From Dehalococcoidia bacterium (GTDB lineage Bacteria; Chloroflexota; Dehalococcoidia; GIF9; UBA5629), in assembly GCA_041653995.1 (NCBI GenBank), contig JBAZEK010000001.1, positions 1,030,613 through 1,094,612 of the forward strand: a stretch of 64,000 bases of DNA. Reading direction: 5' to 3'. The translations under genes and the position numbers were made by a program. Positions within the stretch are counted from its first letter, which is position 1; each line of letters opens with the position of its first letter. This document shows positions 5,138 through 43,219 of this stretch, in pieces. A model generated the notes under the pieces. The model worked only from the letters and a program-made list of their open reading frames with translations. It made no database searches and was not told the origin of the DNA.

Positions 5138-7201
5138 ATGGTGACAATGCTGAGGCTCTGCATAGCCCTGATTATCATTATCGCATTGGTCCTGCCAGGA
5201 ACAGGTTGTATTAAATTGGGCAAACTGCCGGGAAAACAGGCCGCGGAAAATAAGACTGCAGCATCAGGCGTCACGGCCGGGGGAACTGCCGGACAGTCAG
5301 GATCACAGGCGCCGGACACGGCGGGCAATCAGCCCGGTCAGGGCGGACAACCGGGCGCCCAACCCTCCGGCCAGGAGGCACAGGTCATTACCGGCGGTGG
5401 TGGAGTTGCCGTTGCCAACTGGATCGGCACCTGGCAATGCGGCAACTTTAAAATGTATCTGAACCAGGCAGGTGACCGGGTAACTGGGTGGTACGAGTAC
5501 GAAAACAGCGACATCGAAGGCACTGCTACCGGCAACACTCTCACCGGTACCTGGACTGTATCAGGTGTTAAATATGGTTTTCAGATTGTTCAGTCCTCTG
5601 ACGGCAAATCCTTTTCCGGCCGTTATAACCAGGGAACTTCAAGCAATCAAGGTGGATCATGGTCATGCACAAGGATAAGCACGGCCATGCCCACTGCAAA
5701 ATCATCAGGAGAAAATTCCCAGGTAATCACCCAGGGAGGAGGCGTGGCCGTTGCCAACTGGATCGGCACCTGGCAGTGCGGCAACAATAAAATGTACTTG
5801 GACCAATCAGGAAATCAGGTGACCGGGTGGTTCGATTCTGAAAATAGCGATATTGAGGGCTTTGCCACAGGCAATACACTTGTGGGTACCTGGACCAAGG
5901 GCGGAGTCAAATATGATTTCCAACTGGATCAGTCGTCTGACGGTAAATCATTTGCCGGACATTTTCGCCAGGGATCATCAGGCGCATGGACGGGAGAATG
6001 GTTCTGTATACGCACCAGCAGCGCCAGACCTCCGGCGAAACCAGCCACATCATATCCCCCCTCAGCCATACAGACTGCAAGCTGGACAGGTACATGGGAA
6101 TGCAATAATTATAAAATGTACCTGACCCAGACAGGCAGCAAGGTGACCGGCTGGACTGAACTGGATAATGGTGACATCGAAGGCTATGCAACCGGTAACA
6201 CAATTGTCGGCACCTGGACACTCTCCGGAATTGAATATGATATTCAGCTAAACCAGTCATCCGACGGCAAATCCTTTACAGGCCATTACCGTCAGGGTTC
6301 ATCAGGCAATTGGGCAGGAAGCTGGCCCTGCACTTTTATAACCAACGCACAGCCTCTGCCAAAGTCCGCAGTTCGATCTCAGCCTGCACCGACAGCACCC
6401 CCCACAAGCTGGACCGGCACATGGCAGTGCGGCCAGAAACAAATATGGCTACTTCAGACGGGCAGCCAGGTCATTGGCTGGTATGATGAACAGAGCGGTG
6501 ATATTCAGGGCTATGTCACAGGAAATACACTGGTAGGAACCTGGGCGGACGCCTCGGGTGAAAAAGATATTCAGCTGTCCATGTCCGCAGACGGGAATGC
6601 TTTTTCGGGTCATTACCGCACCAGCCCTTCAGCAAGCTGGATCAGCCACTTCTCCTGCACGAAAAAAAGCGCGGAATTACCCGCACCCAAAGTAACATTT
6701 GATATACAGCCCGTAAGTATTACCAGGGGGATGTCCGCGCAGTTATCCTGGAGCACTATACTGGCTACTTCTGTAGATATTAAACCGGACATAGGTCCCT
6801 GTGGCGCTAATGGCAAAATAAATGTCAAGCCCGACGCAGACATCTCATATACATTGAGCGCGAGCAACCCATTTGGCGGATCTAAAGTAACAGTTCCCCT
6901 AAAGGTAACATCGCCGAACTGGAGCGGGGAATGGGACTGCGGAAGCTTTGGGCATATGATACTCACCCAATCCGGCAACCAGGTTAACGGAATATATACA
7001 TACCAGGGCGGTAAAATCAGTGGCTATGTTAACGGGAATAAGCTTGCAGGAACGTGGTCTGAGGACCCGACCCATAAAGCTCCTGATGATGCGGGTGGTT
7101 GCGAATTCACCCAGTCAGCAGATGGTCTTTCCTTTACCGGTTATTATGACTACGGGTTTTCAGGCGCCGTGAGTCCCTGGAACGGGAAAAGGATTAGATA
7201 G
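5138..7201 (+). CDS. secreted lipoprotein with five ~105-aa Trp/Cys-containing repeats plus one Ig-like domain
   Basis: 687 aa with lipobox 'LPGTGC'. Repeats start W(I/T/S)G(T/E)W(Q/E/D)C and end (W/F)xC. AGGAGG upstream of the ATG. Confidence 0.8.
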   Translation: MVTMLRLCIALIIIIALVLPGTGCIKLGKLPGKQAAENKTAASGVTAGGTAGQSGSQAPDTAGNQPGQGGQPGAQPSGQEAQVITGGGGVAVANWIGTWQCGNFKMYLNQAGDRVTGWYEYENSDIEGTATGNTLTGTWTVSGVKYGFQIVQSSDGKSFSGRYNQGTSSNQGGSWSCTRISTAMPTAKSSGENSQVITQGGGVAVANWIGTWQCGNNKMYLDQSGNQVTGWFDSENSDIEGFATGNTLVGTWTKGGVKYDFQLDQSSDGKSFAGHFRQGSSGAWTGEWFCIRTSSARPPAKPATSYPPSAIQTASWTGTWECNNYKMYLTQTGSKVTGWTELDNGDIEGYATGNTIVGTWTLSGIEYDIQLNQSSDGKSFTGHYRQGSSGNWAGSWPCTFITNAQPLPKSAVRSQPAPTAPPTSWTGTWQCGQKQIWLLQTGSQVIGWYDEQSGDIQGYVTGNTLVGTWADASGEKDIQLSMSADGNAFSGHYRTSPSASWISHFSCTKKSAELPAPKVTFDIQPVSITRGMSAQLSWSTILATSVDIKPDIGPCGANGKINVKPDADISYTLSASNPFGGSKVTVPLKVTSPNWSGEWDCGSFGHMILTQSGNQVNGIYTYQGGKISGYVNGNKLAGTWSEDPTHKAPDDAGGCEFTQSADGLSFTGYYDYGFSGAVSPWNGKRIR

Positions 7202-31038: not shown

Positions 31039-31275
31039 TTACATGATGTAGGGCGTGCGGCAGCATTTAAGTGCAACACGATGAGAACATATGGTGGGCG
31101 ATACTGGATTTGAACCAGTGACCCCCTGTGTGTAAGACAGGTAAAAACCTTTAATTGACTGGAGCTTATTGATAATCTCTAGGGAAGCCTTACGTTGTCC
31201 TGAAAGAATCATGCTCAAATAGCTTTTACTGATACCTAATTCTTTGGCTAATTGACTCTGTGTTAACTTTTTCAT
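31039..31275 (-). CDS. HTH protein = putative N-terminal fragment of the split integrase (Int-N)
   Basis: ATG 31275 abuts the xis-like stop. HTH 'LTQSQLAKELGISKSYLSMILSG'. Residues 49-61 are encoded by the att/tRNA copy and the last 17 aa by host flank. Confidence 0.6.
   Translation of the reverse strand: MKKLTQSQLAKELGISKSYLSMILSGQRKASLEIINKLQSIKGFYLSYTQGVTGSNPVSPTICSHRVALKCCRTPYIM
31092..31142. repeat. att site (distal copy): 3' 51 nt of tRNA-Val(UAC) without the 5' half
   Basis: 'tggtgggcgatactggatttgaaccagtgaccccctgtgtgtaagacaggt' is identical to 43144-43194. Confidence 0.95.
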
Positions 31276-31530
31276 TTATTTCACCCGCCTTTTTATATCC
31301 TTTAAGCCTGCGTTTCCAATTATCGGTAAATATTGGTACGACTTCTTCTGTCTTCCTTTTGCACTAAAGTTCCCCTGTGGTTTTCTCACAAAATGACAGT
31401 CTACCTCATCAATAAGCCATCTCCGTCCAATGTAGAGTGCATTAATCCGTCCCTCTGACAAAAGCTTACGAACCCGTCTCTCAGATATACCAAGCCTTTC
31501 TGCTGCCTGTGGAACCGTAAGTAGTTTCAT
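31276..31530 (-). CDS. excisionase-family DNA-binding protein (Xis-like)
   Basis: 'LLTVPQAAERLGISERRVRKLLSEGRINALYIGRRWLI' is the typical excisionase/MerR-type HTH_17 pattern. Confidence 0.7.
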   Translation of the reverse strand: MKLLTVPQAAERLGISERRVRKLLSEGRINALYIGRRWLIDEVDCHFVRKPQGNFSAKGRQKKSYQYLPIIGNAGLKDIKRRVK

Positions 31531-31706
31531 TCAATTACCTTCTATCATTTTAATATTATACCGTTATCGGAATAATGTCAAGTATAATTACAAGCTAAAA
31601 TATCTTTTCTTTTTGCCGCATTTTTCCATAATACTCCGCAGAATTTTTTCAAATCGTATTTAAATTAAGTTTTAAAAGTTCAAGAATGAGGGTTTATAAT
31701 ATGCAT

Positions 31707-31817
31707 ATAAACTGGAAGCATATGGAAGGAAGCACGATAGAAAGTTAGAACGTAAGCAAGCGAGTAAGCAAGAAGGAAAGCAGGCGAGCAGGGAAGCTAT
31801 GTTGCTTTCCTTTTTTT
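31707..31817 (+). ncRNA. candidate ~110-nt purine-rich small RNA or leader ending in an intrinsic terminator
   Basis: TATAAT at 31695-31700. Five GGA motifs. 8-bp stem ggaaagca/tgctttcc (31775-82 / 31803-10) followed by T7. Confidence 0.3.
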
Positions 31818-31841
31818 AATTTTTTGATTCGGAGGTACGAA

Positions 31842-32057
31842 ATGACTGAAAACAAGGTCAAGGAAATTAGATTGAGCAAATGCATGAATCAGAGAGAACT
31901 GGCAGAGAGAGCTCATATCTGTCAAACAGCTATTTCAGACATTGAAAGGGGGGTAAGACTACCATGGAAAGCAGCGTCTGAAAAGCTTGCTATTGCATTG
32001 GGTGTCACAATCGAGGAATTATTCCCAAACAATCTTAGGGGAGGTAAAAATTGCTAA
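31842..32057 (+). CDS. Cro/CI-type XRE HTH regulator
   Basis: ATG 31842 after GGAGG. 'MNQRELAERAHICQTAISDIERGVRLP'. Divergent from xis-int. Confidence 0.75.
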   Translation: MTENKVKEIRLSKCMNQRELAERAHICQTAISDIERGVRLPWKAASEKLAIALGVTIEELFPNNLRGGKNC

Positions 32058-32398
32058 ACAAAAATAGAACGTCTTTAAAGCTGGGAAACAAGAAAGTAGG
32101 CTACTTTGAAGGTGATAAATTCATCAAACCCGTAATCGGCTCAAAGCATCTGCTGAAATTTCCTTACCAAGCTTGGGCAATTGATGCCAAAGTATTTGAC
32201 GATGAAATTAAACCTAACGCCAATTATTTTATTGTAAGAGATAGGGAGTCGGGGCTTGAATATAGTTGTACGGTAAAGGACTTCGACAATTTAAAGCGAA
32301 CCATTAACAGAGGGTATGGTAAGCAGTACAGTCTATCTCTAAAACATTGGAAAATAGCAGCTATGGAAGACGCTGAAGCTTCCAGTAACGCAACATAG
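32051..32398 (+). CDS. hypothetical protein
   Basis: 115-aa ORF with TTG start after GGAGG, overlapping the cro-like stop by 7 nt. No recognisable motifs. Confidence 0.5.
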   Translation: MLNKNRTSLKLGNKKVGYFEGDKFIKPVIGSKHLLKFPYQAWAIDAKVFDDEIKPNANYFIVRDRESGLEYSCTVKDFDNLKRTINRGYGKQYSLSLKHWKIAAMEDAEASSNAT

Positions 32399-32579
32399 AG
32401 TAGTGCAGCACCCGTTTTAGTAGTTGGAGGTGCTGTGTAAAAATGGTATTAGACAGAAGGAAAAGGCTGATGGAGGAGGGTATGACTCGCCATGATATTT
32501 CAGGAGCCTACTTATTTAATCAATTCAAGTGAGTTGTAATAGATGGTCATACCTATTCGATGGTCTTAAGGAGGAAAAT

Positions 32580-33026
32580 ATGATTCAGGGCATAGAAAAT
32601 TATATAAATTTAACAGATACCAAGAATGAATGGGCAAAATTTCTAAATGGCTTTGAATGGCATTGGTTCTTTACTCTCACATTTGATAAAAAGGTAAGTG
32701 ATGACTTGGCATACAAGCAATTCTTTAGGTGGAAGAATTGGATAAAGAGTTCAGTAGGACACAGAATTTTCTATCTAATTATTCCTGAGCGTCCCAAGTA
32801 TAAGGGAGATAATACTCATATTCATGGATTTCTTAATGGTGTTGAAAATGAGAAACCCTACATATGGAGAAGGAAATGGGAGGCAATGGCAGGCTTTTCT
32901 CGGATTCAACCCTATGATAGTTCAAGGGGTGCAAGCTATTATCTAGCGGATAAAATTGTATTTAAAGAAGAGGATATTTATCATAGCAAAGACCTAAATA
33001 TGATAAAGATAAATACACTCAATTAA
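32580..33026 (+). CDS. HUH-superfamily rolling-circle replication initiator (Rep)-like protein
   Basis: ATG 32580 after AAGGAGG. Motif I 'FFTLTF', motif II 'THIHGFL' (HUH), motif III 'YYLADK'. Confidence 0.55.
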   Translation: MIQGIENYINLTDTKNEWAKFLNGFEWHWFFTLTFDKKVSDDLAYKQFFRWKNWIKSSVGHRIFYLIIPERPKYKGDNTHIHGFLNGVENEKPYIWRRKWEAMAGFSRIQPYDSSRGASYYLADKIVFKEEDIYHSKDLNMIKINTLN

Positions 33027-33117
33027 ATCCATTATATATATCAATATGATTATTACTACAAACATCAATATTTATTTCTTTTACTTTTACTTTTCCTTAT
33101 GCCCCTTTTTTATTTTT

Positions 33118-33172
33118 GCCCCAAATATGAATTAAATATAAATATCTACAATTAATTGCATAAAATTGGGGC
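33118..33172. other. hairpin (7-bp GC-rich stem, 41-nt AT-rich loop): candidate replication origin
   Basis: gccccaa (33118-24) pairs with ttggggc (33166-72). The loop holds 'taaatataaatatctacaa' (33133-51), which recurs at 34198-34216. Confidence 0.35.
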
Positions 33173-33231
33173 ATAGGGAAAAAATCACATATAAAATTCA
33201 AATAGAAAGTCAGGAGGAATCAGTAAGTAAA

Positions 33232-33858
33232 ATGAGTACAATAATTTCAAAACCTACGACAATTCAAATTAGCATGCTTGGGACACATGCCTTTTGTGAA
33301 TATAGGATATATCTTGAGCTTGTTATGGGTTTTAAAGCACGAGGTACACCAGAAATGCTTGAAGGCACAAAAGCACACTCAAGGATAAATACGATGGCTT
33401 TCTTAACGAGAGATTCAAATATTAGCATTGAGGATGCGTTGCTCCAAGCAGAGTCAGACGGAAGAGAAATAACAAAAAGGAACGTACGGGTAACAGGTAA
33501 GATACTACGTGGGAATATCGATGAAATTCACATTGGGCCAAAAGAAATTACGATTATAGATGATAAAAAATGGGCAGAGCATTATCCATCATATAAAAAT
33601 CAAGTCTTTGGCTATTGCCTTGCGTTTAAAGAACAATACAACCCAAAGCAGCCGATATACGGTGCCATAAAGAATTATCAGTCTGGAAAGGAAGTCTGGA
33701 AAAAACAATTTTCAGTTTTGGAAGAGGAATATATAAACGGCATTGTTCAAAGAATACTGGGGATAATTCGTGAGGATATCACTCCAAAACCCATTGGTGT
33801 TAGAGAAGTATGCTGGCAATGTGGATTTAAAAATTACTGCAATGTAAGGACACGATAG
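33232..33858 (+). CDS. Cas4-like PD-(D/E)XK nuclease with 4-Cys cluster
   Basis: N-terminal Cys 'HAFCEYRIYLE', 'IDEIH', 'IIDDKK', 'NQVFGY' (QxxxY), C-terminal 'CWQCGFKNYC' (C-x2-C-x5-C). AGGAGG upstream of ATG 33232. Confidence 0.6.
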   Translation: MSTIISKPTTIQISMLGTHAFCEYRIYLELVMGFKARGTPEMLEGTKAHSRINTMAFLTRDSNISIEDALLQAESDGREITKRNVRVTGKILRGNIDEIHIGPKEITIIDDKKWAEHYPSYKNQVFGYCLAFKEQYNPKQPIYGAIKNYQSGKEVWKKQFSVLEEEYINGIVQRILGIIREDITPKPIGVREVCWQCGFKNYCNVRTR

Positions 33859-33895
33859 CAAAATGGTGGAAAAAGGAAAAAGAAGAAACTAACTA

Positions 33896-34159
33896 CTATA
33901 CTGCCTTGAAACCCACAATAAAGTAATTTGATTTATCAAATATAAGTCTTATCTTGTGTTCTGAATTATCCTTGCCGGCCAGGGCAATTAAGAATGATAG
34001 CTTCTTTGGATTAGTAACTGTCTTAGAAATTGGACGATGGACAATAAAACCCTCAAGTTCAATCTTCACATATCTACAGCCAGTCTTCGGATATGGCAAA
34101 TCCTTCTCTTCCACAATATCTATATATTTGCATATGGCTGAATTTGTCCTTCTTGGCAT
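33896..34159 (-). CDS. hypothetical protein
   Basis: 87-aa ORF on the opposite strand, with purine-rich SD (AAGGGAAGAAAGGAA) upstream of the ATG. Confidence 0.4.
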   Translation of the reverse strand: MPRRTNSAICKYIDIVEEKDLPYPKTGCRYVKIELEGFIVHRPISKTVTNPKKLSFLIALAGKDNSEHKIRLIFDKSNYFIVGFKAV

Positions 34160-34503
34160 ATTTATTTCCTTTCTTCCCTTTTCCGCTAAATTTAAACTAA
34201 ATATAAATATCTACAAATTATTATATTAAATCCACAACCAAATTTGAATATGAATGCCACAGATAAATGGCGGAAAAGAAAAAGAGTCTTAGAGATATTA
34301 TTATTTTGTATTATTTTCTTTAATAGTCAGATAGCAAGTGTGGCTAAGGGCAATTTTACCTTTAAAAATATTGAATCTGGTTGTCATTTGTCTAGTGCTT
34401 TAAAAATAGAAAACCTTCACGTGTGAGAAATGCCAGTAGCACGTGTATTAGAAGCGGCATTTTAAATAAAATCTTAGCCCAAAGTCATAGCAAATATAGA
34501 TTG

Positions 34504-34532
34504 TTGCATGCGTCCTTTTAATACGATAGAAT
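34504..34532 (+). promoter_or_regulatory. promoter TTGCAT-17 nt-TAGAAT (copy A)
   Basis: Both hexamers and the spacing are conserved in the duplicated unit at 40413-40441. Confidence 0.5.
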
Positions 34533-34558
34533 ACGGTCAATGTAGTGAGGCTGGGGAG

Positions 34559-36502
34559 ATGAAATATTTACTTGCTTGTTTCATAGCACTATTCGTTATA
34601 TCAGCCTGTGCATCTCAAGTCCATGTTGGTGACCAAGCTCCAAACTTCACACTGACAGATATAAATGGTAAACGTATTAGTCTGCAAGATTTTCGTGGCA
34701 AGCAGGTTGTTCTTTATCTTTGGTTTTTATATTGTCCTGAATGTACAGAAGACCTTGCTGAGATTCAAGAGTTGAATAATAATAGTGACGAAAGAGTCAT
34801 TAAGTTCCTAACCATTAACCCAGAAAATTCATCAAAAGACGTTGCGGATTTTTTCACTAAAAATGGATATAGTTTCCCAGTTTTGTTTGATTTAGATGGA
34901 AGTATTTACAAGCAATATAATTTACGACCTCGGTCTGCACCCTACACAATAATTATTGCTCCTGATGGAAAGATTAACAATATTACAGTGGGGAATCTTC
35001 ATTATCAAGGTGGTTTAAAACGGTTAATTGGAGATAACGTAACATCCTTCAGTCCAAGTGCACAAACTCAAAAGACTCCAATAATTATCGTACCCAGTTT
35101 ACAATCTCATGGTGTCGATGAACTTGCTTATGTATCTAGCGAAACGAACACGAACTCTATATATGTCGTGAATGCAAACGGGGAATATATTGCTAACTCA
35201 TCTGGAAAAATGGATGCATTATACCATGTTAGTTGGTCGCCAAACGGAGATAAGATTATTTTTGAAGTGGTTAAAGATATCAATATAGACCAGAGAAATA
35301 TGACCCTTATTTCTTCGTCTGATATTTATTCTCTTGATATTAAAGACCATGAAGAGCGTAGACTTACTTCAAATTATCCGTATAGCAATTGTTCTCCCAC
35401 ATGGATTGAAGACGATAAAATCGTATTTTATTCAACAAGGGGAAGTTCGTATGGCAGTTTTTTACAAAATATATACATCATGAACGCAGACGGAAGTAAT
35501 CAGATAAATTTAACTAATTGTGCAGAGAATGTACCTATGGTATTAGAACCAATATTATCGCCTGACCACTTGTCTGCAGCATATATTACGGGTAAGTTAT
35601 TCGATGAAGATATATATGTGATAAACCTAGTGAATGGAAATAAATTTGAAATAGGCCATAATCCAACATTTGCACCCTGGACTTGGTGGTCTCCAAACAG
35701 TAAACAGATAGCGTATATATCTGCCTCTCTAAACGGGGGGCCTGAATCATTTTATCTCTACGATGTCGAAAAACAGAAACCGATAAAATACTATGATAGC
35801 CCTCAATCTTATTCTATTATGGAAATAGCATGGTCGCCAGACAGTAACAAAGTCGCTATTTTTGAAAAACCGCAGAGCTTGTATGTTTTAGATTGTCTGA
35901 GTTCCAAGTTTACAAAACTTGATGGGATATGTGACTGGGTAGTAGAGATGAAATGGATACCTAATAACCAACAAATAGCCATTATTGGTGACAGGTTTAC
36001 AAACAGAAACTTGTATGTAATTGATATTGGTGAGCAGAGTAAGCATAAAATCAATCCAGAGGGAACGGCAGTCGAGTCGTATCGATGGTCAACTGATAAT
36101 ACAAGAATCATTTATTGCTTAGATGATGGATATCTTTACACAACTTTCCTACCCAACTTAAATACCATAAAACTAATGCAACTTAATAAAAATACGATAA
36201 AAGGGTTAGCTTTGTCACCAGACGGTTTATTAATCGCTGTTGCTCTGAGTGACGATACTCTAACTGTAATTTCATTAAACAATAACAAGGTGTGCTTGTT
36301 AACTAATGATTATTACAATATTGGAGCAATTTCTTGGTCGCAAAACAGTAACATACTTGCATTTGAATACGGAACTTTATGGGATAGTCCGTTTGTATGC
36401 AGTAACATTCAAATCATCAATTTCGAAAACGAGGAACAGTTCATTAAATTAGATAAACCAATCTCAGGACGCTCTCCAATTTGGGCGAGAAAGGAAAAAT
36501 AA
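34559..36502 (+). CDS. lipoprotein: TlpA/ResA-like thioredoxin domain (CPEC) fused to TolB-like beta-propeller
   Basis: Signal 'MKYLLACFIALFVISAC'. 'VGDQAPNFTLTDINGKRISLQDFRGKQVVLYLWFLYCPEC'. Then >=8 PD40-like blades ('SWSPNGDKIIFE', 'WWSPNSKQIAYIS', 'AWSPDSNKVAIF', 'ALSPDGLLIAVA'). Confidence 0.75.
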   Translation: MKYLLACFIALFVISACASQVHVGDQAPNFTLTDINGKRISLQDFRGKQVVLYLWFLYCPECTEDLAEIQELNNNSDERVIKFLTINPENSSKDVADFFTKNGYSFPVLFDLDGSIYKQYNLRPRSAPYTIIIAPDGKINNITVGNLHYQGGLKRLIGDNVTSFSPSAQTQKTPIIIVPSLQSHGVDELAYVSSETNTNSIYVVNANGEYIANSSGKMDALYHVSWSPNGDKIIFEVVKDINIDQRNMTLISSSDIYSLDIKDHEERRLTSNYPYSNCSPTWIEDDKIVFYSTRGSSYGSFLQNIYIMNADGSNQINLTNCAENVPMVLEPILSPDHLSAAYITGKLFDEDIYVINLVNGNKFEIGHNPTFAPWTWWSPNSKQIAYISASLNGGPESFYLYDVEKQKPIKYYDSPQSYSIMEIAWSPDSNKVAIFEKPQSLYVLDCLSSKFTKLDGICDWVVEMKWIPNNQQIAIIGDRFTNRNLYVIDIGEQSKHKINPEGTAVESYRWSTDNTRIIYCLDDGYLYTTFLPNLNTIKLMQLNKNTIKGLALSPDGLLIAVALSDDTLTVISLNNNKVCLLTNDYYNIGAISWSQNSNILAFEYGTLWDSPFVCSNIQIINFENEEQFIKLDKPISGRSPIWARKEK

Positions 36503-36527
36503 GAAATTTCAAAAATGGAGACTGAAT

Positions 36528-36824
36528 ATGACTGGCGAATTGGGAAATTTTGTTATCGTCATGGGATTACCCTGTTTAGGAGCGCTGTTAATAGCTTTTT
36601 GTTCATTACCAACCGATAAATGGACAATAAAACACACTTTTATGTTGGTGGGAACTTCACTAATTTTTATTAGCTTTATTTTGCAAGCATATCAGATTAT
36701 TGATAAATACCCTGATAAAAATGAATATATATTTGGATGGTGGATTGTCGGTTTAGCTACCGTTATCATGGCTATAATAGGGCAAATTATTAGAATCAGA
36801 TACGGTAAAAGTTGGTTCCAATAG
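36528..36824 (+). CDS. small membrane protein (3 TM)
   Basis: 98-aa hydrophobic ORF, 26 nt after the upstream stop. Confidence 0.5.
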   Translation: MTGELGNFVIVMGLPCLGALLIAFCSLPTDKWTIKHTFMLVGTSLIFISFILQAYQIIDKYPDKNEYIFGWWIVGLATVIMAIIGQIIRIRYGKSWFQ

Positions 36825-36920
36825 GATAATAAAATAGTGGGAAAGGAAAGAGAAGGAAATTTAATTAGCTATCTATATTTAAGATAAGAGTGACTTATAG
36901 AACTTCATTGAGGTTGGGAG

Positions 36921-37451
36921 ATGCAACAACAGTATCAATGCCCTAATTGTAGGTATCCAGTTGCTTATGGGAATAATTTCTGTGGACATTGTAGACAACA
37001 ACTAATCTGGCAACAATTAATGCCACCTTCACCACCAGTACACCATCAGCAAACACCACAAGGCATTATTGGGAAATCACACGAGCAAAACACTTCTGGA
37101 CAAGGTGGTCAATCAATAATACCCGATGAAAAGCGTATTAAACTTCCAAAACTCAATATTCGTTTCGACTTTGAGTTGTTTCAAGCAATTGAGGACAATG
37201 ACCGTAAACTGGCTGAACAGCTCAAAGCAAAATATGGGGATGATGTTTATAATTCCAATTTTTATAACCTGCTTAGTATCGAAGACGCTAACTCAGTAGA
37301 CTCACTTCATCTTAAACTAGTATCAGTTGAAAAAATGAATTTCAATGATATTTTATGCGAAAGTATCAAAATAGAGACTGAAAAAGTACGCAAAAGGATA
37401 GAGGAGCTTGAGAATATAAAAAATTTACGCAACGGGATTGAGGAAGTGTAA
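36921..37451 (+). CDS. zinc-ribbon protein with Pro-rich linker and helical C-terminus
   Basis: 'MQQQYQCPNCRYPVAYGNNFCGHCRQQLIW'. Head is homologous to the host ORFs at 57880(-) and 58107(+). No TM helix. Confidence 0.65.
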   Translation: MQQQYQCPNCRYPVAYGNNFCGHCRQQLIWQQLMPPSPPVHHQQTPQGIIGKSHEQNTSGQGGQSIIPDEKRIKLPKLNIRFDFELFQAIEDNDRKLAEQLKAKYGDDVYNSNFYNLLSIEDANSVDSLHLKLVSVEKMNFNDILCESIKIETEKVRKRIEELENIKNLRNGIEEV

Positions 37452-37511
37452 GGAACTGACTAAACCCCTGAAACTGGCAGCTCGAGTAAGAAAAATGGCG
37501 GGAAAGAAAAT

Positions 37512-39368
37512 TTGATTTATATGTTATGGGATGATACGTATCGTAAAGATGCAGCGGAGTATGAAATCTATCTGCGTATGCATCATAAAGAAAAAAACGA
37601 TTACGAGAAGCTTTTATCTAATCTTGAACGTGAGTGGTCAGAAAAATCAGTTAAAGAAGAAAACTACATATCGCTTAAAAAGGAATACACAGCGAAACTA
37701 CAGGAAACAAAGAAGTACATTTCAAAGCTGAAATTCCAGATTACAGCACTCATTAAAAAATGTAATAAAGACATAGATAAAATCGATAGCCAAATTGAAC
37801 AAATTAAATTGCGGCACAAAGTTGGTGAATATTCAGAGGAGAAACTCAAAGAACTATTATCACCATCTGAAACAGAAAGAAGGCAATTTGAATCCTTAAT
37901 AATCGAACTGAAACGCATACATGGCTTGAAATATATACCTAAACCAACTACCGATGATGTTGTATCAGAAACAGAACCGAGTCAGCCTAGAAGGTCTCCT
38001 ATCCCAACGTCATCTACTTCTATTTCAACAGCTGAAGAGCAAGCCCCCGAAATATCAGCACCAATGAGTTTTGAAGAACCGCCTCCTATTTTGGTACCTG
38101 CTGTATTTAAAAAGTCTTCACCTGTAAGAGTAAAGAAGAGTCTGTGGATTATGGCTTCGATTACTATGTTTGTAATATTAATTCTCTGTTTTGTTATTTG
38201 GAATATAGAAGTGCATAAAAAGGTAATCCCTCAGATTGGAGACCAAGCTCCAAACTTCTCTCTCCCAGATATGAATGGTAAAACGGTTAACCTTCAGGAC
38301 TTTCACGGAAAGGGTGTTGTTCTTTACCTTTGGGACACATCATGTCCTTACTGCAAAAATGACCTTAGCTGGATAAATGAATTAAATGGCTGCACCTATG
38401 ACGAAGCAATAATATTTTTAACTATTAATATCTCAGATTCACGTGGAACAGCTATTAAATATTTTGAGGAAAATGGATATAGTATTCCCGTTTTAAATGA
38501 TATGCGTGGGACGGTTATTAAGCAGTATGTAAAGTACACCTTAGGCCATACGTATCCAGATACTATTCTTATTGGTTCAAATGGCCAGATTCGTAATGTA
38601 AAAGTCGGGCCCTTCCAAAGCAAGACTGAATTAAAAACATTTATAGAATCAGGTTTAACCCCCCGTTGGGATAATACTCCTCCACAAATTTATGATATTA
38701 ATCTTTCTAAGGCCTCTATTTTGAGTTGGAAAACGGATGAGGAAACACATAGTAATATACAAGGGTTTCGTAATAGTGTCGGAGGTGCTGGAGTCACTCT
38801 TGGTGAAAATTGGACAAGATATCATAGCGTAAATGAAACAGTTTGCACTAATGGCTACTATGACCAAATTCAAATCAACTCGTATGACCGCTGCGGTAAT
38901 TCTGCTTCAAAAGTTTTTACACTGCCCAACTGCATAAATTTAGGTTGTAGAGCTCCTGATTTCACAGCAACTTCAACTAATAATCAGGATATAACGCTGT
39001 CCGCAGTACCTAGCAAAATGACTCTACTTCACTTCTGGCTACTCGGATGTGGTGCATGTGAAAAGGAACTTCCATTAATCCAAAAACTATATTATGAGCG
39101 TCCTAGAGAAGAACTTGAGATATTGGCTGTGAATGTTAGAGGTGACATATACAGCATAAATGACTTCGTTACTGCAAATGGTTATAGATTAATTATTTTA
39201 CTAGATACAGAAGGCATAATAGATGCCGCCTATCATAATCCAAGGTTCCCCACAACCTTTTTATTGGATTGCAATAAGGTAATTATTAACAAGCATGACG
39301 GTGCCTTTCAAAATTATGAAGAAATCGTTGATTTTGTAGGTCAGTATCCAAAACTTCCTGGTAAATAG
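37512..39368 (+). CDS. coiled-coil / TM / thioredoxin (CPYC) / Fn3-like / thioredoxin (CGAC) protein
   Basis: 618 aa. TM 'LWIMASITMFVILILCFVIW'. 'IGDQAPNFSLPDMNGKTVNLQDFHGKGVVLYLWDTSCPYC', 'ILSWKTDEETHS', 'CRAPDFTATS...LLHFWLLGCGAC'. Start uncertain (TTG 37512, ATG 37521, or frameshifted ATG 37495). Confidence 0.7.
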   Translation: MIYMLWDDTYRKDAAEYEIYLRMHHKEKNDYEKLLSNLEREWSEKSVKEENYISLKKEYTAKLQETKKYISKLKFQITALIKKCNKDIDKIDSQIEQIKLRHKVGEYSEEKLKELLSPSETERRQFESLIIELKRIHGLKYIPKPTTDDVVSETEPSQPRRSPIPTSSTSISTAEEQAPEISAPMSFEEPPPILVPAVFKKSSPVRVKKSLWIMASITMFVILILCFVIWNIEVHKKVIPQIGDQAPNFSLPDMNGKTVNLQDFHGKGVVLYLWDTSCPYCKNDLSWINELNGCTYDEAIIFLTINISDSRGTAIKYFEENGYSIPVLNDMRGTVIKQYVKYTLGHTYPDTILIGSNGQIRNVKVGPFQSKTELKTFIESGLTPRWDNTPPQIYDINLSKASILSWKTDEETHSNIQGFRNSVGGAGVTLGENWTRYHSVNETVCTNGYYDQIQINSYDRCGNSASKVFTLPNCINLGCRAPDFTATSTNNQDITLSAVPSKMTLLHFWLLGCGACEKELPLIQKLYYERPREELEILAVNVRGDIYSINDFVTANGYRLIILLDTEGIIDAAYHNPRFPTTFLLDCNKVIINKHDGAFQNYEEIVDFVGQYPKLPGK

Positions 39369-39441
39369 ATAATTTCTTGATATTAAGAAATCGAGGTGTA
39401 CTGGTCTGAACCCCTGAAACTGGACAGCTTGAGTAAGAAAA

Positions 39442-39951
39442 ATGGCGGAAAAAGAAATGCAACAGGAGGAGCATCCCCTAAATATGGGGAAGCTACTTGT
39501 GAATTTCCAATCACTTGAGATAGCTCTCCGTCTATTTCTTTATAATGATGAAATTGCCTCTAGAGTTTCATCTCCTCAGGCGGTAAACCTAAATGCTATG
39601 AATGCGGGGGATATAGTAGCTGAAAATGCGTTCACAAACTATGATAGTCTAAGTCAACTCATTGATAAATATAATAACCATCCCAACATCATATCGACAG
39701 GTCTAACCATTGATAAGACTTTAGTGGACATACGTGATGCAATAGCTCATGGAAGAGTCGCTGGAGTCACTCCTTTGCTTGTGCCTCCTTTAAAACTAAT
39801 GAAGTTTGATAAACCAAAGAACAAAAGTGTGAAAGTAACATTTAGCGTTTTATTGACAAGGGAATGGTTCATTCTAGAGATGGCTAAGGTTCAAGATGCA
39901 GTTTTTAAAGTCTTTCAAGCTATCCAAATAATACAGAGTGCTAAGACATAA
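39442..39951 (+). CDS. hypothetical protein with RxxxxH (HEPN-like) motif
   Basis: 169 aa, predicted helical. 'VDIRDAIAHGRV' matches the Rx4-6H HEPN signature. Motif-level evidence only. Confidence 0.45.
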   Translation: MAEKEMQQEEHPLNMGKLLVNFQSLEIALRLFLYNDEIASRVSSPQAVNLNAMNAGDIVAENAFTNYDSLSQLIDKYNNHPNIISTGLTIDKTLVDIRDAIAHGRVAGVTPLLVPPLKLMKFDKPKNKSVKVTFSVLLTREWFILEMAKVQDAVFKVFQAIQIIQSAKT

Positions 39952-40412
39952 GTGGTGCCCTCTGAAATCGCTCTGAGGGGCTGAAATCAGGGTGTTGCAT
40001 ATTGAACATGACGGATTCCACCTGTCATTACTATTCCAGCTTAATTAGAGCCTTTAAAGTATTAAACAGTAAAGGTAATAACTCTACTTCCTTTCCCTTA
40101 AGCCCCTTTATTATTTCTTCGCCTAAGTTTCCGTTCAAGTGAATTATGTCGCTTTTAAGACCAACAAACGCTGGTACACCATAAACACGTTTACGTTCAA
40201 GCCAATTATGTCGTTTTGCATATATTATTTCCAGCTTAAATTAACTACAGAAAAATGGGGCAAAAAGAGAAAAAGGGGAATTATATATCAATTTATTGTC
40301 AATAATCTTTGAAATACTATTACTTCATCTGAGAGAGATGCCAGCAGCTAAGTGTAACGGCATTGAATTTTAAATAACTTCTCAGCCCAAAGTGGTAACG
40401 CATATAGGTCTA

Positions 40413-40441
40413 TTGCATAAGTATTGTTCATATAATAGAAT
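40413..40441 (+). promoter_or_regulatory. promoter TTGCAT-17 nt-TAGAAT (copy B)
   Basis: Same hexamers and spacing as 34504-34532. Followed by an identical 5' UTR and signal-peptide coding sequence. Confidence 0.5.
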
Positions 40442-40467
40442 ACGGTCAATGTAGTGAGGCTGGGGAG

Positions 40468-41880
40468 ATGAAATATTTACTTGCTTGTTTCATAGCACTA
40501 TTCGTTATATCAGCCTGCACACCAAATAACTCAATAAACAACGTTGAGACATTCCCAAAAATCGGAGATAAGATACCGAATATCTCATGGACTACTATCA
40601 ATGGCGAAAAGATTGATTTAAATCAGTTTAAAGGCAGTTGGGTGCTACTATGCTATTGGTGCTCTTGCCCTGTACATAGGAATGACATACTGACTATTCA
40701 TAATGTTTATGATTCATTATATGATAAGAATCTCGATGTCATTGTAATTAATGATACTTATGCTCAGATAGAATTAGAGGCATTTGGAAAACAAAACAAT
40801 GTACCGTTTTATTTAATTGAAGATAATCAAAAAACAATTGATAAACTTGTACCATTTGGCAACAGGCCAATATATCTCTTAATTGATGGGAGTGGGGATT
40901 TACATGCTATCGAAATAGGTACATTTCGCTCTGGCGAAAATAGCGTTAACAATGTAATCAATTTCCTTGATGATGTGATTAAGGTAAGAATCGATAATAT
41001 TACAGTCACTAATATTACTTCAAATAGGGCAACTGTGAGATGGAAAACAGATAAGGCAGTACCGTGTTGGTTGGAAATTCACCCCCAAGGTGACCCAATC
41101 GGAAAGTGCATCGGCAAGACAAATCCAAATACATTTCATGAATTGATATTAAACTGTAATCCCAACACAGCTTACACTTTTAACGTAGCTGCTAGTGGAT
41201 TAGATAATTCTTTAATTAACGATGCAAGCAATCGTAGTAGTGAATTTTCATTTCAAACATTACCAAATTGGGTTACTTCTTTATATGAGGTTGACTCTAC
41301 TAAACCAAAAATATCGAATGTTAAAGTTTCTATAATTACAGATACGAGTGCAGAGTTATATTGGGAAACTGATGTGGAAGCTCAAGTCACCGCTACAATC
41401 TGTAAATATATATCCAGTACTGATGCGCCCTTAAACTCCCAGAAAATTGATTTTATAGAAGACATATATTTTACAAAGAAACATAGCTTTACAATTAGCT
41501 CTCTTGAGCCAAGACGATTATATGACGTTGGTTTAAATGCCAAAGATAGAATGGGAAGGGTTGCCGATTACAGTGTCGAATTTTTAACACAACCTTCAAA
41601 TTATACTCACGGAGCGAAGATATCCAATATATCTTTATATGACATCACGGACAGGAGTGCTAAATTAAAATGGTCAACTGACAAGTCAGTATGGAGTTCA
41701 GCCTGCTATAAATATGAGTGCTCTTCTGGGGACATCAACACTGAGCATTCATATACACTATCCTATGGTCTGGAACCCGATACAGAATACTGGGTGCAAA
41801 TTCTAGCACATGGGGAATCGGTATCTGATGTATTCAACTTCAGAACATTAAAGACAACAGATAAGGTAGATATGAAATGA
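40468..41880 (+). CDS. lipoprotein: degenerate thioredoxin-like domain (WCSCP) plus three Fn3-like domains
   Basis: Identical signal 'MKYLLACFIALFVISAC'. 'IGDKIPNISWTTINGEKIDLNQFKGSWVLLCYWCSCP'. Fn3-like starts 'ITSNRATVRWKTDK', 'ITDTSAELYWETDV', 'ITDRSAKLKWSTDK'. Confidence 0.7.
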   Translation: MKYLLACFIALFVISACTPNNSINNVETFPKIGDKIPNISWTTINGEKIDLNQFKGSWVLLCYWCSCPVHRNDILTIHNVYDSLYDKNLDVIVINDTYAQIELEAFGKQNNVPFYLIEDNQKTIDKLVPFGNRPIYLLIDGSGDLHAIEIGTFRSGENSVNNVINFLDDVIKVRIDNITVTNITSNRATVRWKTDKAVPCWLEIHPQGDPIGKCIGKTNPNTFHELILNCNPNTAYTFNVAASGLDNSLINDASNRSSEFSFQTLPNWVTSLYEVDSTKPKISNVKVSIITDTSAELYWETDVEAQVTATICKYISSTDAPLNSQKIDFIEDIYFTKKHSFTISSLEPRRLYDVGLNAKDRMGRVADYSVEFLTQPSNYTHGAKISNISLYDITDRSAKLKWSTDKSVWSSACYKYECSSGDINTEHSYTLSYGLEPDTEYWVQILAHGESVSDVFNFRTLKTTDKVDMK

Positions 41881-41907
41881 AAGAAAATCAAAAGGGAGGT
41901 AAAGAAG

Positions 41908-42084
41908 ATGGTAGCAAATAAGAAGAAGTATTATGCAGGGGAATCAGCTAAAGTCTCTGGCAAATACAACGAATGCAGATTGGGCACAGGCAAAACAGGA
42001 GTAACAGCAAATGTCAAGAAGGGGGATACACTCCCACCACATAAAATAGGAGCTCATTGGGAGTTATCAAGAAAATCTAAATAA
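41908..42084 (+). CDS. small YjzC-like protein (58 aa)
   Basis: Not in the track (<60 aa). AAGGGAGG lies 8 nt upstream. 'GESAKVSGKYNE...VKKGDTLPPHKIGAHWEL' resembles the YjzC family pattern (from memory). Confidence 0.5.
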   Translation: MVANKKKYYAGESAKVSGKYNECRLGTGKTGVTANVKKGDTLPPHKIGAHWELSRKSK

Positions 42085-42316
42085 TATAGACATATTTAAG
42101 AAAGTGGTGACTTATAAAACTTCATGCTGTCCTGAAAGCTGAATGACCGAGTATATCTTTGCACCATAATAAAGTTCAGCCAAGGCACCGTTAAAATGTA
42201 CTACAGAATTGTTCTAAAGGGCCAAAATGGGGTATATAATATAGGGCATGACAGATTCTTCCTGCCTGAGCTTTTCAAGCTTAATTATTGAACAAATAAC
42301 TATGAAATCCTGATTG

Positions 42317-43081
42317 CTAACGAGGTAACTGATTTGAGCCGTTCACATCTTTGTAGACTTGAAGAGCATCCTCAAAGGATAAAGATTTTGAATACCTTTC
42401 AACCATAGAAATGCTTTCCCAACCGCCTAGATTTTGCACAATACGAGTGGATAACCCAGACTTAATATTGTGAATACAAAACCCTCTTCTATAGCTATGG
42501 GCGTTGGACTTAATGCCAGTTTCTTTAGACAATCGTTTAAGCATAGTTTTAATGCCAGCTCTTGATATTTCAAAACTATCATGCTCATCAAACCACTTTC
42601 CGATAACACCATTACCAGCTAAAGCCTTACGATACTTGTTACCCTTGCCCAGAATGGTTACTGTACCTTCACCCCAGTCAAAGTCTTTAGCGTGCACATT
42701 AGCACATTCACTCAGCCTTACTCCTGAGTACCATAAGAAACTAATTAATGCTCTATCACGTTCACAATGACAATGATTTATCAGAACTTCTAATTGTTCT
42801 TTTGATACCGCAGGCAATAGCTTCTTTTGAATTTTTGGGCTAGGAACTTTGTCAATAACCTTGTCGTGAATATAGCTATTGCTGTATAGCCATGAAATGA
42901 GAGTTTTGAGAGCTTGATAGAATCTTGCTTTGCCATTATGACAGGTAAGTGATTTTAGATAAGCATTAACTCCATCTGGACTTAGGGGATAACCAATAAA
43001 ATGAGTTAAAGTATATTCGTAAAATTCAATAGTTCGCTTACTACAACCATCGGGGCGAGAAGAAATAAACTTCTCCAACAA
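42317..43081 (-). CDS. tyrosine recombinase, C-terminal part of split integrase (Int-C)
   Basis: Catalytic residues in 'GVRLSE' (R), 'HSYRRGF' (HxxR) and 'MVERY' (Y). No ATG or SD (track start is TTG) and first Met codon is at residue 180. The frame stays open upstream through attR. Confidence 0.85.
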   Translation of the reverse strand: MLEKFISSRPDGCSKRTIEFYEYTLTHFIGYPLSPDGVNAYLKSLTCHNGKARFYQALKTLISWLYSNSYIHDKVIDKVPSPKIQKKLLPAVSKEQLEVLINHCHCERDRALISFLWYSGVRLSECANVHAKDFDWGEGTVTILGKGNKYRKALAGNGVIGKWFDEHDSFEISRAGIKTMLKRLSKETGIKSNAHSYRRGFCIHNIKSGLSTRIVQNLGGWESISMVERYSKSLSFEDALQVYKDVNGSNQLPR

Positions 43082-43143
43082 TTCTTTTGTGAACTTTTTG
43101 TAGCTAACTTGTGAATATTGTGAAATTGAGCTGTAGTTTTCTT

Positions 43144-43219
43144 TGGTGGGCGATACTGGATTTGAACCAGTGACCCCCTGTGTGTAAGACAGGTGCTCTA
43201 ACCGCTGAGCTAATCGCCC
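43144..43219 (-). tRNA. tRNA-Val (anticodon UAC), CCA encoded; integration target
   Basis: GGGCGATTAGCTCAGCGGTTAGAGCACCTGTCTTACACACAGGGGGTCACTGGTTCAAATCCAGTATCGCCCACCA. Anticodon loop CTTACAC. The 3' 51 nt form attR. Confidence 0.9.

What the first reader, a model, noticed from the sequence alone, without database searches (positions are those of the whole stretch)
42317..43194. Integrase ORF is partitioned by its own att site (SSV-type arrangement) in what looks like a bacterial genome
Evidence at the right end: the 254-aa tyrosine-recombinase ORF (43081->42317) has no ATG, no SD, and no Met codon before residue 180. By hand translation its frame stays open upstream through 43082-43143 and through the att copy (...S P T K E N Y S S I S Q Y S Q V S Y K K F T K E | L L E K F I S S...). 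Evidence at the left end: the 78-aa ORF 31275->31039 starts with ATG immediately after the xis-like stop and encodes an HTH. It crosses the other att copy in exactly the same codon phase (...SYTQGVTGSNPVSPT; the Thr codon at 31095-31093 corresponds to 43147-43145). It then runs 17 codons into host DNA. Consequence: joining the ends through one att copy, as in an excised circle, gives a single uninterrupted 336-codon ORF (61 + 21 + 254) with the layout HTH - core-binding - catalytic domain, in an xis-int operon. attP therefore lies inside int, and integration separates Int-N from Int-C by 12 kb. This is the hallmark of SSV1-type integrases of archaeal fuselloviruses, and I am not aware of it being an established feature of bacterial elements. 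It raises the question of how, or whether, the element excises.
Basis: partly seen in the sequence, partly recalled or inferred. Interest (0 to 1): 0.85.

Follow-up and report, generated by a model that had tools for sequence, protein, structure and literature searches.

The report
Bacterial integrase split by its own att site
A 12-kb mobile element sitting in a tRNA-Val gene carries an integrase gene that is cut in two by the element's own insertion, and about 30 related elements in Dehalococcoidia bacteria show the same split, an arrangement that a 2021 review says is found only in archaea.

Summary
A 12,052-bp, low-GC element lies between exact 51-bp direct repeats (31092-31142 and 43144-43194). 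The repeats are the 3' part of tRNA-Val(TAC).

The recombinase frame has no ATG, GTG or TTG above the TTG at 43081. It stays open through the att copy. The 78-aa HTH ORF at the other end enters its att copy in the same codon phase. Joining the ends gives one 336-codon ORF: XRE-type HTH, linker, Xer-like core-binding domain, catalytic domain.

For this window alone, chance would give this about 8% of the time. The comparison with relatives is what makes it convincing:
- 93 of 120 homologues carry tRNA-encoded N-terminal extensions.
- The int frame runs into the adjacent tRNA in about 44 of 49 genomic loci.
- In-silico excision restores a seamless HTH-integrase ORF in 34 of 42 loci, across about a dozen att cores in both tRNA orientations.
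- One natural contig (L001) carries the unsplit gene.
- The att-encoded peptide falls in a predicted disordered linker.
- GTTCACAA repeats flank the core inside the coding sequence.

This is not a member of the SSV family by sequence. It is a bacterial analogue that also has the gene layout of mycobacteriophage integration-dependent immunity. How it excises is unresolved.

The parts
31092..43194 (-). Whole integrated element plus both att copies (12,052 bp start to start)
   Evidence: Exact 51-bp direct repeat. GC about 0.35 inside against about 0.55 in the flanks.
43144..43219 (-). tRNA-Val(TAC), the integration target. Its 3' 51 nt (43144-43194) are the right att copy.
   Evidence: ARAGORN. 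Rfam tRNA at 74.2 bits.
31092..31142 (-). Left att copy, the displaced 3' fragment of tRNA-Val
   Evidence: 51 of 51 bases identical to 43144-43194.
42317..43143 (-). Int-C: a start-less reading frame for the spacer, the Xer-like core-binding domain and the catalytic domain. The only candidate start is the TTG at 43081.
   Evidence: Translation. PF00589 at E = 4.5e-21. XerA model positions 9-253 align to joined residues 92-314. Family-invariant residues in A1 include R143, K167, K173, H216, R219, W242 and Y251, which I read as the catalytic set.
43087..43124 (-). Three direct TTCACAA repeats in the spacer next to the core. I read them as candidate recombinase or HTH binding ('arm') sites. They also encode part of the linker.
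   Evidence: Three of the 14 window-wide matches fall within 38 bp. All 30 reconstructed attP regions have 2-3 GTTCACAA repeats at this position.
31143..31275 (-). Int-N: ATG plus 44 codons of XRE-type HTH upstream of the core. As integrated, the ORF continues through the att copy and 17 host codons to the stop at 31039.
   Evidence: ORF list. HTH_3 at E = 1.2e-10. Same phase as Int-C.
31276..31530 (-). Xis-like 84-aa HTH_17 / excisionase-domain gene. Its stop abuts the Int-N ATG.
   Evidence: PF12728 at E = 2.8e-10 and TIGR01764 at E = 2.3e-10. The same gene precedes the HTH in L001, L010, L014, L024, L077 and L142, and a partial one in L120, but not in every family member.
31552..31581 (-). 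Promoter-like site (TTGACA ... TATAAT) for the xis / Int-N operon, with the palindrome CCGATAACGG between the hexamers
   Evidence: Consensus scan. A similar arrangement with CCGCTATCGG occurs in L001.
31824..32057 (+). Divergently transcribed 77-aa XRE HTH gene in a cro-like position
   Evidence: HTH_3 at E = 5.9e-10. Plus-strand promoter-like site at 31671-31700.
32529..33858 (+). Replication module: a rolling-circle Rep-like protein (32529-33026) and a Cas4-like PD-(D/E)XK nuclease (33166-33858)
   Evidence: PF23343 scores 27.6 bits, just under its 27.8 cut-off. PF01930 at E = 4e-7.
34508..41880 (+). Cargo: three AhpC/TSA-type redoxin-domain proteins, one with a beta-propeller and one with FN3 domains, plus small ORFs
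   Evidence: Pfam.

Best explanation
The element encodes one integrase made of an N-terminal XRE-type helix-turn-helix domain, a flexible linker, and a Xer-like core-binding plus catalytic module. Its attachment site attP lies inside the DNA that encodes the linker. attP consists of a tRNA-identical core flanked by GTTCACAA-type repeats.

Shown here by sequence analysis:
- Integration into tRNA-Val(TAC) has cut the gene.
- The promoter, the xis-like gene, the start codon and the HTH (Int-N) sit at one end of the element. There the ORF reads into host DNA.
- The remaining 275 codons (Int-C) sit 12 kb away next to the tRNA, with no start codon of their own.
- The intact gene exists only across an attP junction, in a free circle or between tandem copies.
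- This arrangement is a conserved property of a Dehalococcoidia-wide family.

Inferred, not shown:
- The full-length protein is the active integrase, and its HTH binds the TTCACA repeats as an arm-type domain.
- Splitting the gene locks the element in place, acting as directionality control as in archaeal SSV-type 'suicidal' integrases.
- The HTH-only product, still expressed in the integrated state, acts as a repressor or competitor. That would give an integration-dependent switch like that of mycobacteriophage BPs.
- Excision then needs full-length integrase supplied in trans by an episomal, tandem or superinfecting copy, or rare expression of Int-C.
For: In the window:
- The 336-codon ORF is seamless across the joined ends.
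- There is no start codon above the TTG at 43081.
- No promoter-like site or terminator lies between the tRNA and Int-C.

In the family:
- 93 of 120 homologues have at least 20 extra N-terminal residues. These are translations of tRNA genes, such as ...GSNPxSxT and ...SLRGRCPKPLDECAT.
- In about 44 of 49 genome loci the int frame runs open into the adjacent tRNA. Targets include Val, Ala, Glu, Gly, Met and Arg, in both orientations.
- Eleven of the 15 genome loci with a second att copy rebuild a single ORF carrying the HTH and the integrase.
- Twenty-three of 27 metagenome loci with both att copies do the same.
- L001 is a natural, unsplit xis / HTH-att-int operon with no tRNA gene.
- More distant relatives (P0158, P0169, P0258) are direct HTH-integrase fusions with no tRNA peptide. 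The HTH is therefore a genuine domain of this recombinase clade.

Structure and sites:
- In the AlphaFold2 model of P0012, residues 34-66 have pLDDT below 50. This stretch includes the att-encoded residues 48-62. Confidence is above 90 through most of the model from residue 71 onward, falling again only at residues 287-308.
- All 30 reconstructed attP regions have 2-3 direct GTTCACAA repeats on the int side. Most have a TTCACA-N4-6-TGTGAA inverted repeat on the HTH side.

Decay: roughly a quarter of integrated Int-C copies are frameshifted or truncated. That fits a fragment that is not expressed.
Against: - No expression or recombination data exist for any member.
- Only one intact unsplit gene was found among about 140 loci. 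Other contiguous junctions (L067, L079, L085, L089) are frameshifted or truncated remnants.
- The peptide motif SSQKFT upstream of the TTG may be conserved because of the DNA repeats rather than the protein. It does not by itself prove translation there.
- Six of 120 homologues start Int-C at an ATG inside the att core. This suggests Int-C may work without the HTH.
- Int-C contains complete core-binding and catalytic domains.
- In this window Int-C lies downstream of a tRNA operon in the same orientation with no terminator between them. The TTG could therefore give some Int-C.
- This copy lacks the HTH-side inverted repeat because of a 27-bp in-frame deletion, so it may be crippled.
Confidence: 0.8

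Rival explanations
1. There are two separate genes arranged as in mycobacteriophage integration-dependent immunity. One is a small HTH repressor whose 3' end contains attP. The other is an independent, arm-less Xer-like integrase translated from the TTG at 43081 or an equivalent. On this view the shared frame is incidental.
For: - The gene layout matches BPs: rep, then attP, then int in one direction, with a cro-like gene divergent from them.
- Int-C is a complete core-binding plus catalytic protein.
- Int-C is distantly related to the arm-less Brujita integrase 5vfz (E = 2.8e-10).
- Most weak phage hits are mycobacteriophages.
- A subgroup really is organised this way, with an ATG in the att core.
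Against: - Independent genes would share a phase only one time in three and would collect stop codons in the 20-45-codon spacer. The fusion is instead preserved in 34 of 42 reconstructions, over about a dozen att cores and both tRNA orientations.
- No start codon is conserved at or near the TTG. The equivalent codons are CTG or CTT in L001 and L004.
- Distant relatives are direct HTH-Int fusions.
Confidence: 0.1
2. This particular copy is an immobilised relic. The split is real for the family, but here the element can no longer excise and the open frames are simply not yet degraded.
For: - A 27-bp in-frame deletion removes the TTCACA..TGTGAA inverted repeat that L080, L004 and L123 have on the HTH side.
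- Many relatives show decay: L002, L007, L034-L036 and L054.
Against: - The att copies are 51 of 51 identical.
- Both halves are intact, and the family-invariant residues I read as catalytic are present.
- The three int-side repeats are intact.
Confidence: 0.15
3. Int-C is made in the integrated state, by read-through from the tRNA operon and initiation at the TTG or at start codons inside the tRNA. It carries out excision together with Xis, so the gene is not really disabled by integration.
For: - Int-C has the same orientation as the tRNA cluster, with no terminator between them.
- Many homologues have an in-frame ATG or GTG inside the tRNA, for example MGSNPISST and MISSLRGRCP.
Against: - In about half of the att types, int is antisense to the tRNA, so read-through cannot be the general route.
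- The in-tRNA start codons vary between loci and are absent here.
- No Shine-Dalgarno sequence precedes the TTG.
Confidence: 0.12

Closest known systems
SSV-type ('suicidal') integrases of archaeal viruses and plasmids (SSV1, pTN3, pT26-2)
   Same: attP lies inside the integrase ORF. Integration into a tRNA gene partitions the gene into a short int(N) and an int(C) that carries the catalytic domain. The intact gene exists only in the free or tandem form, and integrated copies decay (papers read; this family).
   Different: - The host is a bacterium of the Dehalococcoidia.
- The protein belongs to PF00589 and is Xer-like, not PF16795.
- The N fragment is an XRE-type HTH.
- Int-C keeps a complete core-binding domain.
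- Some members also carry an xis-like gene.
- Repeated GTTCACAA sites flank the core.
Integration-dependent immunity of cluster G/N/P actinobacteriophages (BPs, Brujita, Charlie)
   Same: - The order is HTH gene, then attP, then a small Xer-like int, all co-transcribed, with a divergent cro-like gene.
- Integration changes the C-terminus of the HTH protein and separates int from its promoter (paper; window).
- There is weak sequence kinship to Brujita Int.
   Different: In BPs, rep has its own stop codon and a degradation tag, and int has its own start. Here the HTH ORF runs without a stop into int, so the 'viral form' of the HTH protein is the integrase itself. Repressor activity of Int-N has not been tested.
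Myxophage Mx8 IntP/IntX and Burkholderia phi52237 / phiE202 / phiK96243 integrases
   Same: These are bacterial elements whose attP lies within the int coding sequence, so integration alters or partitions int.
   Different: In those phages the att site is at the 3' end. Integration only swaps a C-terminal tail, and the gene keeps its promoter, start codon and catalytic domain. Here the cut is in the 5' third and removes the promoter, the start codon and a DNA-binding domain.
IME1 elements of Dehalococcoides (bioRxiv 10.64898/2026.09.15.751708)
   Same: - The host class is the same.
- The elements lie downstream of a tRNA.
- The first gene is a XerCD-family tyrosine recombinase and the last gene is a Cro/C1-type HTH 'repressor'.
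- They are found both integrated and as circular episomes.
   Different: IME1 elements are about 21-28 kb with virion-like genes. The preprint treats the two end genes as separate and never mentions attP. I could not obtain IME1 sequences, so whether its end genes fuse across attP is untested.

Membership tests
SSV-type (suicidal) integrases | attP lies inside the integrase ORF, and integration splits the gene into int(N) and int(C) | tested here: met
   Window. In 34 of 42 related loci, in-silico excision gives one seamless ORF. A natural unsplit gene exists in L001.
SSV-type (suicidal) integrases | Sequence family Phage_integr_3 (PF16795), superfamily 25_02 of Badel et al. | tested here: not met
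   Pfam at E <= 0.1 lists only PF00589 plus HTH families. The best NCBIfam matches are XerA, XerC and XerD.
SSV-type (suicidal) integrases | Found in archaeal hosts and archaeal mobile elements | tested here: not met
   62 loci come from MAGs, nearly all labelled Dehalococcoidia or Chloroflexota. The window's host genes include KatG, EmrB and HD-GYP response regulators.
SSV-type (suicidal) integrases | Full-length protein catalyses integration and excision without a directionality factor, and the fragments are inactive | not testable with these tools
   This needs biochemistry. An xis-like gene is present in some members only.
Integration-dependent immunity cassette (BPs type) | attP lies inside the ORF of an HTH protein that sits directly upstream of int in the same orientation, with a divergent cro-like gene | tested here: met
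   compared with the description read.
Integration-dependent immunity cassette (BPs type) | The repressor has its own stop codon and a C-terminal degradation tag in the viral form, and int has its own start codon | tested here: not met
   There is no stop between the HTH and int in the joined ORF or in L001. No start codon is conserved for Int-C.
Integration-dependent immunity cassette (BPs type) | The truncated prophage-form HTH protein is the active repressor | not testable with these tools
   I found no TTCACAA match in the xis / XRE intergenic region 31531-31823. The function is inferred only.
Tyrosine recombinases (PF00589, Xer-like) | Catalytic residues R, K, H-x-x-R, H/W and Y, preceded by a SAM-like core-binding domain | tested here: met
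   Family-invariant residues in A1 include R143, K167, K173, H216, R219, W242 and Y251, which I read as the catalytic set. The XerA model is covered over positions 9-253 of 263. The AlphaFold2 model has a confident two-domain fold.
Heterobivalent (lambda-type) integrases | An N-terminal arm-binding domain plus repeated arm sites flanking the core in attP | tested here: inconclusive
   Repeats flanking the core are found in all 30 reconstructed attP regions. The N-terminal domain is an XRE-type HTH, not the lambda/Tn916 fold. Binding has not been tested.
Mx8 / phi52237-type att-in-int | attP overlaps the 3' end of int, so integration changes only the C-terminus | tested here: not met
   Here the core lies at codons 45-61 of 336.

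The most novel reading that the evidence does not exclude
A widespread bacterial family of small integrative elements in Dehalococcoidia uses one gene as both integrase and lysogeny switch. From the free circle the gene makes an HTH-integrase. Integration through an att site embedded in the linker turns the same promoter-proximal gene into a stand-alone HTH repressor and silences the catalytic part. If so, self-splitting integrases arose independently of the archaeal SSV family. They would link SSV-type partition to integration-dependent immunity, and perhaps to the IME1 virus-like elements of Dehalococcoides.
Probability: 0.4. Interest if true: 0.85.

Novelty: new variant of a known kind. Interest (0 to 1): 0.8.

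Why it matters
[quoted passage not shown] This family would be a bacterial counter-example, and by sequence an independent one. It has dozens of natural replicates on different tRNA targets.

It also offers material for several open questions:
- How recombination direction can be controlled by gene topology rather than by a directionality factor.
- How att-site specificity changes while a reading frame is kept. About a dozen cores in both tRNA orientations all have to be read through as a linker.
- How the simple switches of BPs-type phages relate to integrases that carry an arm-binding domain.

There is a practical consequence too. Gene callers currently annotate these genes as 250-300-aa 'XerC/XerD' proteins with tRNA-derived N-termini, plus orphan HTH regulators. 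Element boundaries and integrase lengths in Chloroflexota MAGs are therefore systematically mis-annotated.

Tried and rejected
- IMG/VR viral contigs were scanned with the integrase alignment and with the HTH-linker alignment. They returned only unrelated XRE proteins or distant recombinases. The family is absent there, so no circular viral genome was obtained.
- tblastn against annotated phages and plasmids gave nothing above 30% identity.
- I tried to tie the family to Dehalococcoides IME1. The preprint has no supplementary files held as text, and cluster look-ups of distant homologues gave no organism names. The link remains a lead only.
- The host flanks share only the tRNA cluster with the fetched Dehalococcoidales loci, about 86% over 200 nt. 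The exact host taxon is therefore not fixed.
- A strict regular expression for the xis gene missed most loci. A looser check showed that xis is present in only some members.
- Rfam found no RNA family at the non-tRNA att target of L041.
- I considered and rejected an assembly artefact, because the pattern recurs in independent assemblies. I also rejected a true start at the TTG as the general rule, because no start codon is conserved there.
Full report
**1. What is in the window.**

ARAGORN finds a cluster of four tRNA genes on the minus strand. They are Val-CAC, Leu-CAG, Arg-GCG and Val-TAC, and tRNA-Val(TAC) lies at 43144-43219. The last 51 nt of that tRNA (43144-43194) recur exactly at 31092-31142. 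The 12 kb between the two copies has a GC content of about 0.35, against about 0.55 outside. This is the usual signature of an element integrated into the 3' part of a tRNA gene.

Host genes elsewhere in the window are of bacterial type. They include KatG, an EmrB-type efflux pump and HD-GYP response regulators.

**2. The observation.**

- The recombinase frame read from 43420 down to 42317 is open from a stop inside tRNA-Arg, through tRNA-Val and a 62-nt spacer, to the stop at 42317. The only ATG, GTG or TTG is the TTG at 43081, and it has no Shine-Dalgarno sequence.
- At the other end, an 84-aa xis-like ORF (HTH_17, TIGR01764) is followed directly by a 78-aa ORF. The N-terminus of that ORF is an XRE-type HTH (HTH_3, E = 1.2e-10). 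It reads through the left att copy and 17 codons of host DNA.
- Joining the two ends through one att copy gives a 336-codon ORF with no internal stop. HTH_3 covers residues 2-38 and Phage_integrase covers 175-315. The archaeal XerA model aligns over residues 92-314.

Taken alone this is weak evidence. The core is open in all three frames, and a stop-free 21-codon spacer in the right phase has a probability of about 0.08.

**3. What relatives show.**

A search with the joined protein found 447 homologues. The named ones are all from Chloroflexota or Dehalococcoidia.

Among the best 120 homologues:
- Ninety-three carry 20-80 extra N-terminal residues. These are plain translations of tRNA genes, such as GAVAQLGERLPCTEEVRGSNPLSST, VAHTGFEPVISSLRGRCPKPLDECAT and GFEPTTSCLGSKHSTAELHP.
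- Fifteen are called at the TTG equivalent. For the closest one (88% identity, L066) the DNA shows the frame open for a further 38 codons into a tRNA-derived stretch.

One homologue, P0012, is a contiguous 324-aa protein with the HTH, the peptide SLRGRCPKPLDECAT and the integrase. On its contig (L001) a sigma-70-like promoter comes first, then a 54-aa xis-like gene that overlaps P0012 by 4 nt. The att part is only a 44-nt fragment of tRNA-Glu, and no tRNA gene is present.

A scan of one genome per species returned 62 loci, nearly all from MAGs labelled Dehalococcoidia, Dehalococcoidales or Chloroflexota.
- In about 44 of the 49 loci that retain the 5' end of int, the frame is open into the adjacent tRNA. 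Targets are Val-TAC, Val-CAC, Ala-GGC, Ala-TGC, Met-CAT, Arg-TCT, Glu-CTC, Gly-GCC and Gly-TCC. For several of these, int is antisense to the tRNA, so the element sits at the tRNA's 5' half.
- A second att copy was found in 15 of these loci. In 11 of them an ORF beginning MKQVELAxxLGISKSYLSMILSGQR... enters that copy in the phase used by int at the first copy. In-silico excision then gives one ORF of 324-363 aa.

A metagenome scan seeded on the HTH motif added 27 loci with both att copies. Twenty-three of them rebuild an ORF containing both the HTH and the catalytic motif.

In total 34 of 42 reconstructions succeed, or about 32 after removing obvious duplicates, and this window is one more. 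They cover roughly a dozen att cores.

If the two ends were independent genes, phase agreement would occur one time in three, and stops would build up in the AT-rich spacer. The failures are loci with visible decay (L002/L112, L007), one probable chance repeat (L054), and one locus with no in-phase HTH (L130). In two more (L111, L119) the HTH is in phase but my catalytic-motif pattern did not match.

**4. Anatomy of the site and the protein.**

In all 30 reconstructed attP regions the int-side arm carries 2-3 direct GTTCACAA repeats, often 10 bp apart, about 15-45 bp from the core. Most HTH-side arms carry a TTCACA-N4-6-TGTGAA inverted repeat. The window has three TTCACAA copies at 43087-43124.

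These repeats encode the recurrent peptide motifs SSQ and KFT. That peptide conservation may therefore reflect a constraint on the DNA rather than on the protein.

An AlphaFold2 model of P0012 gives three parts:
- a helical N-terminal domain, modelled with low depth;
- a segment with pLDDT below 50 over residues 34-66, which includes the att-encoded residues 48-62;
- a confident two-domain recombinase from residue 71 onward, apart from a low-confidence stretch at residues 287-308.

So many unrelated tRNA-derived peptides are tolerated at this position. That fits a linker with little structure.

The closest solved relatives by sequence are Pyrococcus XerA (4a8e), E. coli XerD (1a0p) and the arm-less integrase of mycobacteriophage Brujita (5vfz).

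More distant homologues (P0158, P0169, P0258) are direct HTH-integrase fusions with no tRNA peptide. Others (P0127, P0194, P0141, P0161) again begin with tRNA-derived peptides.

**5. Variants and decay.**

Six of the 120 homologues (P0038, P0039, P0062, P0084, P0094, P0115) begin MRxxxxR..KFT. In L148 this start is an ATG inside the tRNA-Glu core, read in another frame because one 10-bp repeat is missing. In these members Int-C is a gene in its own right. This shows that Int-C may work without the HTH, and it shows what the unfused state looks like.

About a quarter of integrated Int-C copies are frameshifted or truncated. Several HTH-att-int' junctions are remnants (L067, L079, L085, L089).

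The window's own copy has intact halves and a perfect repeat. It lacks the HTH-side inverted repeat because of a 27-bp in-frame deletion relative to L080, L004 and L123.

**6. The rest of the element.**

- Divergent from the xis / Int-N operon, with promoter-like sites in both directions, lies a second XRE gene.
- Next come a rolling-circle Rep-like protein (borderline PF23343 match) and a Cas4-like nuclease.
- After those come three redoxin-domain proteins, which look like cargo.
- Related elements are 2.5-10 kb.
- The xis-like gene is present in some members only.

**7. Most likely mechanism.**

Shown by sequence: attP is embedded in the linker-coding part of a single HTH-integrase gene, and integration separates the promoter, start codon and HTH from the core-binding and catalytic domains.

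Inferred:
- The full-length protein, made only from an attP junction, is the integrase.
- Its HTH reads the TTCACA repeats as arm-type sites.
- The split blocks re-excision.
- The HTH fragment that is left, still behind its promoter, may occupy those sites or act as a repressor.
- Excision would need integrase from an episomal, tandem or superinfecting copy, or rare Int-C expression.

In this window read-through from the tRNA operon is possible, since no terminator was found. That cannot be the general route, because many relatives have int antisense to the tRNA.

**8. Comparison with what is known.**

The behaviour matches archaeal SSV-type 'suicidal' integrases, which a 2021 review calls exclusive to archaea. 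The protein is not in that sequence family, because PF16795 is absent, and the hosts are bacteria.

The gene layout (HTH, attP, int, with a divergent cro-like gene) matches integration-dependent immunity in BPs-type phages. The difference is that here no stop codon separates the HTH from int.

Bacterial cases of attP inside int are known at the 3' end. These are Mx8 and Burkholderia phi52237-type phages. They do not remove the start codon or a domain.

A 2026 preprint on Dehalococcoides IME1 describes elements with a Xer-type recombinase as first gene and a Cro/C1 HTH as last gene. They are seen both integrated and as circles, and the preprint never mentions attP. This may be the same arrangement going unrecognised, but I could not test it.

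My literature searches found no description of this family. The library searched is incomplete.

**9. Verdict.**

It is a new bacterial variant of a known kind of system. The regulatory role of Int-N and the route of excision remain hypotheses.

Noticed in passing
L024:16095-16697: After the second att copy (tRNA-Met type) the Int-N frame runs on for about 130 more codons. These look like the N-terminus of a different recombinase, suggesting that two unlike elements sit in tandem and form a chimeric HTH-integrase ORF at their junction.
   Followed up: no
L006, L008, L014, L069, L070 and others (tRNA-Glu CTC); also the Gly and Ala types: Many family members integrate at the 5' half of the tRNA gene, with int antisense to the tRNA. 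The Islander paper counts only 159 of 3919 islands with a 5' tDNA fragment.
   Followed up: partly
L041:403-451 and 6366-6414: One element uses a 49-bp att core that is not a tRNA and matches no Rfam family. The split HTH-integrase ORF is still preserved, and the Int-N part contains two HTH-like segments.
   Followed up: partly
window 34504-34608 and 40413-40517; 34626-34777 and 38236-38387: The three redoxin-domain cargo genes share repeated DNA. The start of the first and third genes, including the N-terminal sequence MKYLLACFIALFVISAC, is 92% identical over 105 nt. This suggests duplication within the element.
   Followed up: no
window 31095-31160 (minus strand): Rfam scores the displaced att fragment plus 15 nt of element DNA as a weak tRNA (32.4 bits against a gathering score of 29). 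The HTH-side arm therefore keeps some tRNA-like character beyond the exact repeat.
   Followed up: no
window 31552-31581; L001 about 254-283: The promoter-like site upstream of xis has a short palindrome between its two hexamers, CCGATAACGG here and CCGCTATCGG in L001. It could be an operator.
   Followed up: partly
L229:4311-9031: A distant, unsplit HTH-integrase (P0158) sits between two 247-aa molybdopterin-oxidoreductase genes in opposite orientation. This could be an insertion into a duplicated gene or an inversion system.
   Followed up: no
L066:1061-1190: The closest relative of this integrase (88% identity) lies next to the 5' half of a tRNA-Ala(TGC)-like sequence, which is fused to a degenerate copy of the Val-type att. 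ARAGORN calls no tRNA there. It may be an off-target integration that broke a tRNA gene.
   Followed up: partly
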